Source of the DNA: a virus
Lineage: Duplodnaviria > Heunggongvirae > Uroviricota > Caudoviricetes
Virus record (IMG/VR): IMGVR_UViG_2690316231_000015
Length of the DNA: 8,145 nucleotides
Reading direction: 5' to 3' (one strand)
Both the position numbers and the translations under genes were made by a program. Below, piece by piece: positions 1 through 8,145 of this stretch. How positions within the stretch are numbered: the first letter of the stretch is position 1; every line of letters begins with the position of its first letter. The notes beneath the pieces were generated by a model. That model was given only the letters and a program-made list of their open reading frames with translations. It was not told where the DNA came from and made no database searches.

Positions 1-46
1 TGTCCGTCTATATCAGATGGGCGTCTAAGTTACCAATTCTCGTCTG

Positions 47-1051
47 ATGGCTACATACGGCGGTCAGTTTACGCTTACTGAAGTGGTATATGGTGCATAT
101 AAAGGTAAAGAATCCCAGCAGATTTATTTTGTTCCCTTTATGACCGATGGTAGCGGAGTTAATACACCGACAAACAACCCGTCAGAAGATCCTGATATTG
201 CCGGGTCTGGTTATTACGGTTCGGCATCCCGAACGAACAAAAACTGGGTATCATCAAATCGCCCGACGCATTTCAGCTCATGGGCGCGTCGTGGCATTAT
301 TCCCGATCGTATGGCAACTGCTATTCTGAACGTAGCCGGTCGCACCTTAGCCTTCATTAGTGGTAAGGCACCGGAAATCAAACCCTCGCCCGGCGGCGAC
401 ACTCCATCGGGGCCGTCTGATGGTGACACATCCGTTCGTACAGTCTCCCTGCTGCCGACAGCCGGAGAGGCTGCTGCGCAGGGCTGGACCATCACCGGCG
501 GCAGTGTTGCGCTGGAAGATGGTGTGTTTAAGGTTACCAAGCAGAGCAATAAAACTTGGTCCCTGATGCATCCGGTGGATGACGCAGTCTCCCTGCTGAC
601 ACGGGGTGGCAGACTGAGCTGTAAGTTTCGACTGTCAGGCGCACTGACCAACAACCAGTTCGGTCTGGGAATTTATCTGTATACCGATGTAGCGTTACCT
701 GACGTCGTGGCGATGACCGGGACTGGTAACCCGTTCCTGATGTCGTTCTTCACCCAGACCACAGACGGCAAACTGAATCTGATGCATCACAGGAAAGCAG
801 GAAACACAAAGTTGGGCGAGTTCGGGAATTACAGTAACGACTGGCAGACGCTGGAGCTGGTGTTCACCGCCGGCAGTGCCACGGTTACTCCGAAACTGAA
901 TGGAGTGGCTGGCCCGGCATTCCAGGTTATAAAAGACAGTCTGACACTGGGACTGAATGCGCTGACGCTGACGGATATTACCAAAAATGCAGCGTATGGC
1001 GTTGAGATAGAAAGTCTGGTGCTGGAGATAAATGCACCAGCATCATCATAA
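47..1051 (+). CDS. NanS-p-like protein, C-terminal portion (end of a sialate O-acetylesterase-type domain plus a ~280-aa C-terminal domain); probably a 5'-truncated or disrupted gene
   Basis: 334-aa ORF. Residues ~10-95 (EVVYGAY...NNPSEDPDIAGSGYYGSASRTNKNWVSS...HFSSWARRGIIPDRMATAIL) resemble, from memory, the C-terminal end of E. coli NanS/YjhS-type 9-O-acetyl-sialate esterases. Position immediately upstream of the holin matches where nanS-p paralogs sit in lambdoid/Stx prophages. An in-frame TAA at 26-28 precedes the ATG at 47, so the esterase body is not in this frame upstream. Confidence 0.5.
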   Translation: MATYGGQFTLTEVVYGAYKGKESQQIYFVPFMTDGSGVNTPTNNPSEDPDIAGSGYYGSASRTNKNWVSSNRPTHFSSWARRGIIPDRMATAILNVAGRTLAFISGKAPEIKPSPGGDTPSGPSDGDTSVRTVSLLPTAGEAAAQGWTITGGSVALEDGVFKVTKQSNKTWSLMHPVDDAVSLLTRGGRLSCKFRLSGALTNNQFGLGIYLYTDVALPDVVAMTGTGNPFLMSFFTQTTDGKLNLMHHRKAGNTKLGEFGNYSNDWQTLELVFTAGSATVTPKLNGVAGPAFQVIKDSLTLGLNALTLTDITKNAAYGVEIESLVLEINAPASS

Positions 1052-1136
1052 AAAGTGAGCCAGTCAAATGGAAGGTATCGTTAAACTCACCGGTAGTGTC
1101 AGTGGGTCGTCTGAGATGCCTGCATGAGTTATCAGA

Positions 1137-1166
1137 GCCATCAGTACTTAACTGGTGGCTTTTTTT
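1137..1166 (+). terminator. Rho-independent terminator candidate between the NanS-like gene and the holin
   Basis: Hairpin GCCAUCAG (1137-1144) / loop UACUUAA / CUGGUGGC (1152-1159): 8 bp with one G-U wobble, followed by a 7-T run (1160-1166). Confidence 0.5.
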
Positions 1167-1201
1167 ATTGTTGTCAGCTTCCGGATAACGGGAGACGGGG
1201 T

Positions 1202-2325: not shown

Positions 2326-2780
2326 GCAGAGTCGCAGCGATTATTTATACTCTGGTTATCTGCACCATCGTCTGCCTGTCATGGGCTGTTAATCATTACC
2401 GCGATAACGCCATTACCTACAAAGCCCAGCGCGACAAAAATGCCAGAGAACTGAAGCTGGCGAACGTGGTAATTACTGACATGCAGATGCGTCAGCGTGA
2501 TGTAGCAGATCTCGACGCCAGATACACAAAGGAGCTTGCTGATGCTAACGCGACTATCGAAAGTCTTCGTGCTGATGTTTCTGCTGGGCGTAAGCGCCTG
2601 CAAGTCGCCGCCACCTGTGCAAAGTCAACGACCGGAGCCAGCAGCATGGGCGATGGAGAAAGCCCAAGACTTACAGCAGATGCTGAACTCAATTATTACC
2701 GTCTCCGAAGTGGAATCGACAAGATAACCGCTCAGGTCAACTACCTGCAGGAGTACATCAGGACGCAGTGCTTAAAATAA
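2322..2780 (+). CDS. Rz: i-spanin Rz (inner-membrane spanin subunit)
   Basis: Translation from GTG at 2322 ([75 protein letters not shown]...) is near-identical in pattern to lambda Rz: N-terminal TMD plus coiled-coil periplasmic domain. GTG overlaps the endolysin stop (GTGA). The ORF-track start at 2307 is a TTG 15 nt upstream. Confidence 0.85.
2542..2727 (+). CDS. Rz1: o-spanin Rz1 (outer-membrane lipoprotein), embedded in the +1 frame of Rz
   Basis: [36 protein letters not shown]...: signal peptide with lipobox V-S-A-C, Pro-rich mature peptide of ~42 aa. AAAGGAG RBS at 2528-2534. Entirely nested within Rz, as in lambda. Confidence 0.75.
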
Positions 2781-3196: not shown

Positions 3197-3817
3197 ATGA
3201 AAGATCAAGATGTTAGGTTCGCGGTGCATCATAAGCTTTTGAAAGAATCGCATTTAGATCCAGACTGCCTTGTGGTCGATGAATTTTCCATATCCCTTGG
3301 CGCCAGTAGAGCAGACATTGCTGTAATAAATGGTGTTATACACGGGTACGAGCTCAAAAGTGAATATGACTCTTTGGAGCGTTTGCCTCTTCAAATCAAG
3401 CATTATTCTTCTGTAATGGACAAGGTTACTCTTGTCGTAGCTGAGAAACACCTTGAGGGAGCATTAAAGTTAATCCCAGGTTGGTGGGGCGTTAAAACGG
3501 TTTCTGTTGGGCCAAAAGGCGCCATTCTTATAAAGCACATGCGTGGAGAAAAGCTTAATCGAAACCATGACACATTGATGCTCGCTCAATTGCTTTGGAA
3601 AGATGAATGTATCGACGTACTTGAACGATGGGGCTATTCCAAAGGAATCAAAAGCAAGCCCCGATTTGAGTTATGGAATATTATTGCGGAAAATATTCCA
3701 ATAGCGAATCTCAGGCCTGAAGTCAGAACAGCCTTAAAGAAACGCGTAGGCTGGAAAGTTAAGGCTTGGCAGGCTGAGTCTGCGCCAACCAATAAAGCTG
3801 TCTCACGACTAACGTAA
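3197..3817 (+). CDS. Hypothetical protein with N-terminal PD-(D/E)xK nuclease-like motif (putative restriction-endonuclease-fold protein)
   Basis: 206-aa ORF with strong RBS (AAGGAG at 3186-3191, 5-nt spacer). Motif E29...D40...E52-L-K54 (VVDEF / RADIAVING / GYELK) in an alpha-beta-beta-beta arrangement typical of PD-(D/E)xK enzymes. Hand-counted GC ~43% in 3301-3400, lower than flanking phage genes. Confidence 0.7.
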   Translation: MKDQDVRFAVHHKLLKESHLDPDCLVVDEFSISLGASRADIAVINGVIHGYELKSEYDSLERLPLQIKHYSSVMDKVTLVVAEKHLEGALKLIPGWWGVKTVSVGPKGAILIKHMRGEKLNRNHDTLMLAQLLWKDECIDVLERWGYSKGIKSKPRFELWNIIAENIPIANLRPEVRTALKKRVGWKVKAWQAESAPTNKAVSRLT

Positions 3818-4826
3818 TATGGTGCGTATGTGCAACTTTACGCCATTCTTTAGAGCCGCCAGATTTGTTAGCGCCTAATGATCTTTGGTAAATGTAATCA
3901 TCCCCCCAACTAAATTTGGAGCCAAAGACTTGATACTCTGGCGAACTAACAAGGGTAGTACATAAGTTTTTAGTTTGGCCCCATCCATTTCCTTTAACTG
4001 CGGTACCTTTTACAAAGATCCATGAGGTATCGTTCGAATATCTCACTGAGACATACTGAGACATGAAGCGTGGGTCTACGCTCGTAATGGTAGAGCTAGC
4101 GGTGGGATAATCACTAAAACTTGGCGTTCTTCCATTGCTAAAATTCTGTACTACGTACATCCAAAGATCGTATTCATGGCGCGGAATATGATGAACTTGA
4201 TGTTGCGGTATCCCTGCCTGTGATGCCGGGTATGCGGTTGAAGATAAAATCAAGTTTCTCCACGGAGCTTGGCCTGATAATGTGTTGACCATGCTTAATG
4301 CTTGTTGTTTTAAACTATCAGTTGCGTTTTGAATATCTCCAAAATCAATGATTACATCAATTAAACTAGGATGAATATTTAAGTGGTTAACCAGACTTGT
4401 GAATTGGTGCCATGTCTGGGGGGTGATAGACATAGCGAGCCCATTGATTAAGTTGCGTTGAACAGCATGTATATAGTTTGTTGAATATGCGGGAGAAACA
4501 ACAGGGATAATTTCCTTACCATTTACTCTAGCATCTTGGATACACATATCTAGAGGATGATGGCGGCTCGAACCATGTTTATCTAAATATTTAACATCCA
4601 GCAAAACAGGACGATTGGCTTTCCAGGATGCCGCAAGGTTAATACCGAAGTCAGATAAGTAAGAACTCAAACTCTTCTTGTAGCATTCGTTTTCATAATC
4701 CCAGTCTATGTCTGGAATGGTAATGATCGGAGTAAAACCAGAGAGCGTAGTTTGATCTAAAAGCATCAGAGATTCATATTCAGCAGGCTTCCATTTCAGC
4801 TGTGGATAATATTGATGTTGACTCAT
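3759..4826 (-). CDS. Hypothetical protein, 355 aa, no recognisable motif; convergent partner of the 206-aa gene
   Basis: Long minus-strand ORF with strong RBS (AAGGAG, plus-strand complement CTCCTT at 4832-4837, 5-nt spacer to the ATG at 4826). Hydrophilic, rich in S/T/N/Q/W/Y/H, no TMD, no Walker motif. AT-rich (hand-counted GC 29% in 4301-4400, 48% in 4201-4300). Its 3' end overlaps the 206-aa gene by 59 bp. Confidence 0.7.
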   Translation of the reverse strand: MSQHQYYPQLKWKPAEYESLMLLDQTTLSGFTPIITIPDIDWDYENECYKKSLSSYLSDFGINLAASWKANRPVLLDVKYLDKHGSSRHHPLDMCIQDARVNGKEIIPVVSPAYSTNYIHAVQRNLINGLAMSITPQTWHQFTSLVNHLNIHPSLIDVIIDFGDIQNATDSLKQQALSMVNTLSGQAPWRNLILSSTAYPASQAGIPQHQVHHIPRHEYDLWMYVVQNFSNGRTPSFSDYPTASSTITSVDPRFMSQYVSVRYSNDTSWIFVKGTAVKGNGWGQTKNLCTTLVSSPEYQVFGSKFSWGDDYIYQRSLGANKSGGSKEWRKVAHTHHITLVVRQLYWLAQTQPAKP

Positions 4827-5230: not shown

Positions 5231-5779
5231 ATGAACGTCAATAAGAAAAAACTGGCCGATATTTTTGGCGTTGATGTCAGGACCATCACCGCCTGGCAGA
5301 GTCAGGGGTTACCACTAGTTTCTGGTGGAGGGAAAGGGACTGAATCAGTTTTTGATACAACTGCTGCCATTCAGTGGTATGCGCAGAGGGAAGCTGATAT
5401 TGAAAACGAAAAACTCCGTAAAGAGATCGAGGATTTGAGGGCTGCCAGCGAATCAGACCTTCAGCCCGGCACCATTGATTACGAACGTTACCGACTGACG
5501 AAGGCACAGGCCGATGCACAGGAGCTGAAAAATGCTCGTGAGGAAGGCCTTGTCCTCGAGACGGAGTTATTTACCTACATCTTTCAGCGAGTGGCACAGA
5601 ATATATCAGGGATCCTTGTCCGTGTCCCTCAGACACTGCAGCGTAAATACCCTGATATATCACCCGTACATCTTGATGCTGTGAAAACTGAAATCGCGAA
5701 AGCATCCGATGTGGCTTCTGAAGCCGGTGAGAATGTGCGCAGGTGGATTGATGATTTCAGACGAACTGAGGGCGGCTAA
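5231..5779 (+). CDS. Nu1: Terminase small subunit (lambda Nu1-like; NohA/NohD-type)
   Basis: 182 aa. [103 protein letters not shown] parallels lambda Nu1 (N-terminal winged HTH). GGGGGAG RBS upstream of the ATG at 5231. Confidence 0.9.
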
Positions 5780-7869: not shown

Positions 7870-8145
7870 AACGAACGCCTGTCCTGATTGATGTGAACGG
7901 CGTTCCGCTTCGTGAGAGTCTCAGCTACAACGGGGGCGGTGCAGGATTTGGCGGGCAAATGGCGGAGTGGTTGCCACCGGCGCAGAGTGCCGATGCGGCC
8001 CTGCTACCCGCGTTGCGTCTGGGGAATGCCCGGGCAGATGATCTGGTGCGCAATAACGGAATAGCGGCTAATGCGGTGGCTCTGCATAAGGATCACATTG
8101 TCGGGCATATGTTTCTGATCAGCTACCGTCCGAACTGGCGCTGGC
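7866..8145 (+). CDS. B: Portal protein (lambda gpB-like), 5' portion only; runs off the window end
   Basis: ATG at 7866 overlaps the W stop (ATGA). The open frame to the window end translates MKRTPVLIDVNGVPLRESLSYNGGGAGFGGQMAEWLPPAQSADAALLPALRLGNARADDLVRNNGIAANAVALHKDHIVG..., matching the lambda gpB N-terminus (GGGSGFGGQ...NARADDLVRNNGYAANAIQLHQDHIVG). Not in the ORF track because there is no stop inside the window. Confidence 0.85.
   Translation, partial: MKRTPVLIDVNGVPLRESLSYNGGGAGFGGQMAEWLPPAQSADAALLPALRLGNARADDLVRNNGIAANAVALHKDHIVGHMFLISYRPNWRW

What the first reader, a model, noticed from the sequence alone, without database searches (positions are those of the whole stretch)
1..1051. 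NanS-p-like esterase gene appears truncated or disrupted at the window edge
The start of the 334-aa ORF resembles the very end of a SASA-type sialate O-acetylesterase domain (recalled similarity to E. coli NanS: EDPD..GYYGSA.R...NW.....HFS..ARRGII.DR...AIL), which implies the real gene begins several hundred bp upstream of the window. Yet the same frame has a TAA at 26-28, while frame 1 is open from position 1 to the stop at 76-78. This is consistent with a frameshift or nonsense lesion (pseudogenised moron), or the esterase body lies in another frame. NanS-p paralogs upstream of the lysis genes are a hallmark of E. coli lambdoid/Stx prophages.
Basis: partly seen in the sequence, partly recalled or inferred. 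Interest (0 to 1): 0.45.

Follow-up and report, generated by a model that had tools for sequence, protein, structure and literature searches.

The report
IS element cuts prophage esterase gene
The prophage sialic-acid esterase gene nanS-p is cut in half by a common E. coli jumping gene (an IS66-family insertion sequence), not by a frameshift or stop mutation, and the sequence stops there because the draft assembly broke inside that repeated element; this is ordinary.

Summary
Window 1-78 is the terminal 78 bp of an IS66-family element that RefSeq annotates as ISEc23-like. It is 100% identical to complete copies and ends in the family's ...ACGCTTAC inverted repeat. nanS-p homology starts exactly at base 79, after nucleotide 884 of an 1857-nt gene.

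ORF 47-1051 is an accidental fusion. Its first 10 2/3 codons, including the ATG and the upstream TAA at 26-28, come from the IS. The other 323 residues are 100% identical to residues 296-618 of an intact 618-aa NanS-p.

Lost: the DUF1737 domain and SGNH blocks I-III, including the nucleophile serine. Kept: the block V histidine, the linker and the lectin-like C-terminal domain. The remnant therefore cannot be an esterase.

The window is a whole 8145-bp contig of a draft E. coli assembly (GCA_001285945.1). The edge is an assembly break in a multicopy repeat. I could not determine whether the 5' half of the gene lies beyond the IS (simple insertion) or was deleted.

IS insertions in nanS-p, including an IS66-family one, are already published. 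Low interest.

The parts
1..78 (-). Terminal 78 bp of an IS66-family insertion sequence (RefSeq annotates complete copies as ISEc23-like). This is the tnpA-proximal end, and the IS genes read leftwards, away from the nanS-p remnant. The terminal inverted repeat, read on the minus strand from base 78, is GTAAGCGTAAACTGACCGCCGTAT.
   Evidence: The 78 bp are 100% identical to E. coli E302 locus L002 3001-3078. That IS copy spans L002 551-3078 and has GTAAGCGT... at both tips (19 of 24 bases match between the ends). It is flanked by the 8-bp direct repeat GGGTGGTT. The 78-mer occurs at 7995 places in 2784 of 5426 complete E. coli genomes. tnpA, tnpB and the transposase are annotated next to it, and the tnpA product matches an IS66 TnpA model above its cut-off (NF047595).
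79..86 (+). TGAAGTGG, the first 8 bp of nanS-p sequence after the IS tip. If this was a simple insertion, this is the predicted target-site duplication (inferred, not shown).
   Evidence: The intact gene reads ...CGCAATA|TGAAGTGGTATA... at the same point. An 8-bp duplication is seen for the E302 copy of the same IS. The other IS end is not in the window.
79..1051 (+). 3' remnant of nanS-p: the last base of codon 295, codons 296-618 and the stop codon of a 618-aa prophage sialate O-acetylesterase gene.
   Evidence: There are 2 nucleotide differences over 79-1100 from the intact genes of strains AST198, W46 and SCPM-O-B-12142. The 323 shared residues are 100% identical to residues 296-618 of the intact protein.
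47..1051 (+). Accidental chimeric ORF of 334 aa. Its ATG and first 10 2/3 codons (MATYGGQFTL, plus two of the three bases of codon 11) come from the IS end, fused in frame to the nanS-p remnant.
   Evidence: There is no Shine-Dalgarno-like sequence in the 18 nt before ATG 47, before GTG 83, or before the internal ATGs at 140 and 311. No promoter-like site was found in 1-1300. The record names it 'phage protein', CTZ68551.1.
80..331 (+). Tail of the NanS-like SGNH/SASA esterase domain (intact residues 296-379). It includes the block V motif THFS, with the catalytic-base histidine codon at 269-271.
   Evidence: Alignment of the intact protein to NanS, PDB 3PT5, E = 4.7e-122. Block definitions for 3PT5 come from PMC10792757.
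458..1036 (+). Intact C-terminal lectin-like jelly-roll domain (presumed carbohydrate-binding module). It contains the Pfam DUF6645 match at nt 596-928.
   Evidence: Intact residues 422-614 align with the solved NanS-p C-terminal domain 6YP6, E = 9.8e-31. DUF6645 matches ORF residues 184-294, E = 1.7e-19.
1134..1172 (+). Intrinsic-terminator-like hairpin plus T run after the nanS-p stop codon and before the holin gene.
   Evidence: 12-pair stem followed by TTTTATTGTT. The holin gene is at 1202-1417.

Best explanation
An IS66-family insertion sequence (ISEc23-like) abuts the prophage gene nanS-p after nucleotide 884 of 1857. The window is a whole draft-assembly contig that starts 78 bp inside this multicopy IS, so only the IS tip and the 3' 973 bp of nanS-p are visible.

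The IS end happens to carry an ATG (47-49) that is in frame with the remnant, and a TAA seven codons upstream of it.

The remnant lacks the DUF1737 domain and SGNH blocks I-III, including the nucleophile serine. It therefore cannot be a sialate O-acetylesterase and is a pseudogene fragment.

Shown: the identity and exact end of the IS, the breakpoint, the domains lost and kept, and the contig status.

Inferred: that the event was a transposition into an intact gene, that a TGAAGTGG duplication exists on the far side, and that the fragment is poorly translated or not translated at all.
For: - Bases 1-78 are 100% identical to the end of a complete IS in E. coli E302. That copy has matching GTAAGCGT terminal repeats and an 8-bp target duplication.
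- The same 78-mer is at 7995 places in 2784 of 5426 complete genomes, a median of 2 and up to 14 per genome that has it.
- nanS-p homology in phages and E. coli begins at base 79. A four-way alignment shows the switch point.
- The intact homologue is 618 aa with DUF1737 at 3-50, SASA at 66-262 and DUF6645 at 468-578. The window product has only DUF6645.
- GQSNA, RGGSAF and MQGEFD are absent from the window ORF, and THFS is present.
- The retained 323 aa are 100% identical to the intact protein, so the event is recent.
- The window equals contig CYFT01000107.1, 8145 bp, of GCA_001285945.1.
- IS elements within nanS-p, including one of the IS66 family, are reported in Stx2a phages (PMC10462455).
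Against: - The far side of the IS is not in the contig, so a simple insertion is not proven.
- The predicted 311-aa product of the 5' half (two alleles tried) is not in the protein collection. This is weak negative evidence.
- The exact junction was found nowhere else: not in 50,697 phage records, 5,426 complete E. coli genomes, the species-representative genome collection or the JGI metagenomes. It rests on one short-read assembly, and I could not inspect the reads.
Confidence: 0.9

Rival explanations
1. Simple transposition: the complete IS of about 2.5 kb sits inside an otherwise complete nanS-p. The 5' 892 nt of the gene, ending in a second TGAAGTGG, lie on another contig of the same assembly.
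For: The E302 copy of the same IS shows an 8-bp duplication. The remnant and the downstream 7 kb are 99.8-99.9% identical to intact prophages, with no other rearrangement. Published nanS-p IS cases are insertions.
Against: An exact look-up of the predicted 311-aa 5' chimera, built from two alleles, found nothing. Any allele difference or a different gene call would also give that result.
Confidence: 0.6
2. IS-associated deletion or rearrangement: the IS first landed elsewhere, for example upstream of nanS-p as in strain E302. An adjacent deletion or recombination between IS copies then removed the 5' 884 nt, so the first half of the gene no longer exists next to it.
For: E302 carries the same IS in the same orientation 142 bp upstream of an intact nanS-p, so such a precursor state exists in nature. 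The predicted 5' chimera was not found.
Against: The E302 arrangement occurs in only 1 of 5426 genomes. Its nanS-p allele also diverges from the window's within the C-terminal region (505 position-by-position mismatches over 79-1100, inflated by an indel; 94% protein identity). It is therefore not the direct ancestor. There is no direct evidence of a deletion.
Confidence: 0.3
3. One reading: a frameshift or nonsense mutation within continuous esterase-coding sequence, or the esterase body continuing in another frame upstream.
For: An in-frame TAA at 26-28 and an open frame 1 over bases 1-78.
Against: None of the three frames of bases 1-78 resembles NanS-p. The DNA is 100% IS sequence. In the intact gene, the sequence before the breakpoint is entirely different.
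Confidence: 0.01
4. Assembly artefact: the IS tip and nanS-p were joined wrongly by the assembler, and the gene is intact in the real genome.
For: The junction is unique to one draft short-read assembly. The contig ends in repeats.
Against: The IS stops exactly at its natural tip...ACGCTTAC, as a true insertion would. The only shared sequence at the join is a 5-base chance match 4 bases from the tip, which is too short to mislead a k-mer assembler.
Confidence: 0.04

Closest known systems
NanS-p prophage sialate O-acetylesterases (e.g. 933W/phi24B NanS-p, Stx2-converting phage 86 gp03; cellular relative NanS/YjhS, PDB 3PT5)
   Same: The window holds the 3' 973 bp of such a gene, 96% identical in DNA to phage 86. 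Its 323 retained residues are 100% identical in protein to residues 296-618 of a 618-aa E. coli prophage allele. It has the same position upstream of the holin and the same C-terminal jelly-roll domain (6YP6-like).
   Different: The first 295 codons are missing: DUF1737, which a 2026 preprint reports as the capsid-binding part, and SGNH blocks I-III with the nucleophile serine. The window copy is a non-functional fragment. Its first 10 2/3 codons come from an IS.
IS-interrupted nanS-p genes of Stx2a phages (IS1203/IS629 of the IS3 family; ISEc8 of the IS66 family in phage F451), PMC10462455
   Same: An IS element lies within or next to nanS-p in a lambdoid prophage. One published case also involves an IS66-family element.
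   Different: The prophage here shows no stx gene in the window. Its closest relatives carry iraM and tRNA genes upstream instead. The element is annotated as ISEc23-like. This exact junction was not found in any collection searched.
IS66 family insertion sequences (ISEc23/ISEc8 type: tnpA-tnpB-transposase, about 2.5 kb, 8-bp target duplication)
   Same: The terminal 78 bp are identical to complete copies and carry the GTAAGCG-type inverted repeat at the tip.
   Different: Only the tip is in the window. The genes and the second end were not seen for this copy.

Membership tests
NanS-p / SASA (SGNH) sialate O-acetylesterase | SGNH block I with the nucleophile serine (GQSNA; Ser19 in NanS) | tested here: not met
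   GQSNA is at residue 71 of the intact homologue and absent from the window ORF. Block definition from PMC10792757.
NanS-p / SASA (SGNH) sialate O-acetylesterase | SGNH blocks II and III (RGGSAF, MQGEFD) and a Pfam SASA match | tested here: not met
   Both motifs are absent. SASA PF03629 matches the intact protein at 66-262 but not the window product.
NanS-p / SASA (SGNH) sialate O-acetylesterase | Block V with the catalytic histidine (SHFS/THFS; His301 in NanS) | tested here: met
   THFS is at ORF residues 74-77, with the histidine codon at 269-271.
NanS-p / SASA (SGNH) sialate O-acetylesterase | N-terminal DUF1737 domain, which distinguishes the phage-borne form | tested here: not met
   DUF1737 is at residues 3-50 of the intact protein and has no match in the window product.
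NanS-p / SASA (SGNH) sialate O-acetylesterase | C-terminal lectin-like domain (DUF6645; PDB 6YP6) | tested here: met
   DUF6645 E = 1.7e-19. 6YP6 alignment E = 9.8e-31 on the intact homologue, whose residues 296-618 are identical to the window product.
NanS-p / SASA (SGNH) sialate O-acetylesterase | Esterase activity on 9-O-acetyl sialic acids | not testable with these tools
   Loss of activity is inferred from the absence of blocks I-III.
IS66 family insertion sequence (ISEc23-like) | Terminal inverted repeats beginning GTAAGCG | tested here: met
   Window 78 to 55 on the minus strand reads GTAAGCGTAAACTGACCGCCGTAT. This matches the other end of the E302 copy at 19 of 24 bases.
IS66 family insertion sequence (ISEc23-like) | tnpA, tnpB and DDE transposase genes | not testable with these tools
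   These lie outside the contig. In copies with the identical 78-bp end they are annotated directly adjacent, and the E302 tnpA product matches IS66 TnpA model NF047595 at 83 bits against a cut-off of 74.
IS66 family insertion sequence (ISEc23-like) | 8-bp target-site duplication | not testable with these tools
   The second end of this copy is not in the window. The E302 copy has GGGTGGTT on both sides. TGAAGTGG is predicted here.
IS66 family insertion sequence (ISEc23-like) | Multicopy, mobile distribution | tested here: met
   7995 places in 2784 genomes, on chromosomes (6550) and plasmids (1445).

The most novel reading that the evidence does not exclude
The IS-supplied ATG at 47 might allow expression of a free-standing protein that combines the esterase tail, the linker and the carbohydrate-binding domain. 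Such a protein would be catalytically dead but could bind sialoglycan or mucin and have a role of its own. A separate possibility is that the similar flanks at three ISEc23 ends (GTGGT/TATAT-like) reflect a target preference that makes nanS-p a recurrent landing site.
Probability: 0.03. Interest if true: 0.3.

Novelty: already known. Interest (0 to 1): 0.07.

Why it matters
It matters mainly for annotation. The 334-aa 'phage protein' (CTZ68551.1) should be read as an IS-truncated nanS-p pseudogene, not as a gene with a point lesion or a new short esterase. This isolate has lost one nanS-p copy as an esterase. It also shows how a contig edge inside a repeat can look like a frameshifted gene. 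No open question depends on it.

Tried and rejected
- I searched for the exact IS|nanS-p junction to recover upstream context. It was absent from phage records, 5,426 complete E. coli genomes, species-representative genomes (38-mer) and JGI metagenomes (30-mer).
- An exact look-up of the chimeric protein returned only the window's own contig.
- I built the predicted 311-aa product of the 5' half for a simple insertion, using two alleles, and looked it up exactly. It was not found, which is inconclusive.
- I tested whether an E302-like arrangement (IS just upstream of an intact nanS-p) is a common precursor. It occurs in 1 of 5426 genomes.
- An inverted-repeat search with default seeds missed the imperfect IS ends. 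I found them by reading the sequence.
- BLAST matches that start at base 70 suggested a 9-base microhomology. The alignment shows only 5 matching bases followed by 4 mismatches, so I rejected this.
- NCBIfam and PADLOC have no model matching the remnant.
- I did not run the large homology search, the structure prediction or the fold search, because sequence identity to solved and annotated proteins already settled the question.

Full report
**What the sequence shows**

ORF 47-1051 (334 aa) exists. The same frame has TAA at 26-28. An open run of 26 codons is unremarkable.

An intact 618-aa homologue aligns with E. coli NanS (PDB 3PT5) over residues 59-379 with E = 4.7e-122. The window ORF carries residues 296-618 of that homologue.

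**Where homology stops**

Every phage and E. coli match to nanS-p begins at window base 79. Some are reported from base 70, but only because BLAST ran through four mismatches over a chance five-base match.

In intact genes the sequence around the breakpoint is ...GGTACGCAATA|TGAAGTGGTATATGG... In the window it is ...GTTTACGCTTAC|TGAAGTGGTATATGG.... The breakpoint lies after nucleotide 884 of an 1857-nt gene.

**What bases 1-78 are**

They are 100% identical to the end of an insertion sequence in E. coli E302 that RefSeq annotates as an IS66-like, ISEc23-family element.

- In E302 the element spans 2528 bp (L002 551-3078).
- It begins GTAAGCGTCAACGGAGCACCGTAT and ends with the reverse complement of GTAAGCGTAAACTGACCGCCGTAT. 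The two ends match at 19 of 24 bases.
- It is flanked on both sides by GGGTGGTT, an 8-bp target duplication.
- The window's IS sequence stops exactly at that natural tip.
- tnpA starts 8 bp to the left of window base 1 on the minus strand, so the IS genes point away from the remnant. The tnpA product matches an IS66 TnpA model above its cut-off.
- The 78-mer occurs at 7995 places in 2784 of 5426 complete E. coli genomes, on chromosomes and plasmids, up to 14 per genome.

**Why the window ends there**

An exact-protein look-up shows the window is the entire contig CYFT01000107.1 (8145 bp) of the draft E. coli assembly GCA_001285945.1. The protein is deposited as CTZ68551.1, 'phage protein'. The 'window edge' is a contig edge. 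The assembler could not extend through a multicopy IS and left 78 bp of it attached.

**What the ORF is**

It is a chimera. The ATG at 47, the next 10 2/3 codons (MATYGGQFTL and two of the three bases of codon 11) and the upstream TAA are all IS sequence. They happen to be in frame with nanS-p.

The remaining 323 residues are 100% identical to residues 296-618 of the intact protein found in strains AST198 and SCPM-O-B-12142. The DNA from 79 to 1100 differs at 2 positions. The event is therefore recent, and nothing has decayed since.

**What is lost and kept**

| Feature | Position in intact protein | In the window ORF |
|---|---|---|
| DUF1737 | 3-50 | absent |
| Pfam SASA match | 66-262 | absent |
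| Block I, GQSNA (nucleophile Ser) | starts at 71 | absent |
| Block II, RGGSAF | starts at 174 | absent |
| Block III, MQGEFD | starts at 232 | absent |
| Block V, THFS (His) | starts at 358 | ORF 74-77; His codon at nt 269-271 |
| DUF6645 | 468-578 | ORF 184-294 |
| Domain aligned with PDB 6YP6 (E = 9.8e-31) | 422-614 | ORF 138-330 |

The block definitions for NanS are taken from PMC10792757, and the motif positions are. The fragment cannot be an esterase.

A 2026 preprint reports that DUF1737 of the phi24B homologue is the capsid-binding part of the protein. That part is also missing here.

**Expression (inferred)**

- No sigma-70-like promoter was found in 1-1300.
- No Shine-Dalgarno-like sequence precedes ATG 47, GTG 83 or the internal ATGs at 140 and 311.
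- The IS genes are transcribed away from the remnant.
- Any transcript would have to come from the phage late promoter, reading through 2.5 kb of IS.

I infer weak translation or none.

The downstream late region is 99.8-99.9% identical to prophages with an intact nanS-p. It comprises holin, a DUF1327 gene, lysozyme, Rz/Rz1, a two-gene insert, the terminase subunits, gpW and the start of the portal gene.

**What remains open**

I could not see the far side of the IS. A simple insertion predicts nanS-p nucleotides 1-892, ending in TGAAGTGG, followed by the left IS end on another contig. That arrangement would encode a 311-aa product. Exact look-ups of that product, built from two alleles, found nothing. 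This is weak evidence, because any single substitution would also hide it.

An IS-adjacent deletion is the alternative. E302 shows the same IS 142 bp upstream of an intact nanS-p, but that arrangement is unique to one of 5426 genomes and involves a different allele.

The junction itself was found in no other phage, complete genome, species representative or metagenome. It rests on one short-read assembly. The precise stop at the natural IS tip argues against an assembly chimera.

**Comparison with what is known**

NanS-p genes upstream of the lysis cassette are a known feature of lambdoid and Stx prophages. [quoted passage not shown] These include IS1203 and IS629 (IS3 family) and one IS66-family element, ISEc8 in phage F451 (PMC10462455).

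The case here is another instance in a prophage whose close relatives carry iraM and tRNA genes upstream, rather than stx. I rate it as already known in kind and of low interest.

Noticed in passing
window 3197-3817 (+) and 3759-4826 (-): A convergent gene pair overlapping by 59 bp lies between the lysis cassette and the terminase genes. The first is an sce7726-family protein (NCBIfam E = 2.3e-54; PADLOC 'cll' E = 3.8e-31; Pfam Phage_P4_cII). The second is a 'beta family' protein (Pfam Beta_protein; PADLOC PD-Lambda-2_C E = 4e-32, 'beta' E = 3e-10). This looks like a candidate anti-phage defence insert related to the P4 gop-beta-cII and PD-Lambda-2 components. No gop-like partner is visible. 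The pair is conserved in related prophages.
   Followed up: partly
window 79-93; L002 3079-3092; L005 about 3579-3595: The DNA next to three independent ISEc23-like ends looks similar: TGAAGTGGTATATGG, GGGTGGTTTATATC and ATTTAAGTGATATTGG. This could be a target-site preference or chance. With only three cases it was not tested.
   Followed up: no
L002 551-3078 (E. coli E302): The same IS, in the same orientation, is inserted 142 bp upstream of an intact nanS-p between iraM and nanS-p, with the 8-bp duplication GGGTGGTT. This arrangement is found in only 1 of 5426 complete genomes. It is a second independent hit of this IS in the same neighbourhood.
   Followed up: yes
window 2536-2727 (+), inside 2322-2780: A 63-aa ORF in a different frame, embedded within the Rz-like lysis gene, has a lipoprotein-type signal (…LLGVSAC…). 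It is the expected Rz1 partner. The gene caller on record did not list it.
   Followed up: no
window 8145 (right contig end) and window 5709/5751: The contig also ends inside the portal gene (7866 onward). This is probably another assembly break in sequence shared between lambdoid prophages. Separately, the terminase large-subunit start is called at 5751 by the gene caller, whereas the longest ORF starts at 5709.
   Followed up: no
RefSeq annotation of homologues (L003, L008 versus L004, L007): Full-length 618-aa NanS-p alleles are named inconsistently in RefSeq: 'DUF6645 domain-containing protein' for WP_000874529.1 and 'SASA family carbohydrate esterase' for WP_000874302.1. Both carry the same three-domain layout, so the DUF6645 name does not indicate truncation.
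   Followed up: partly
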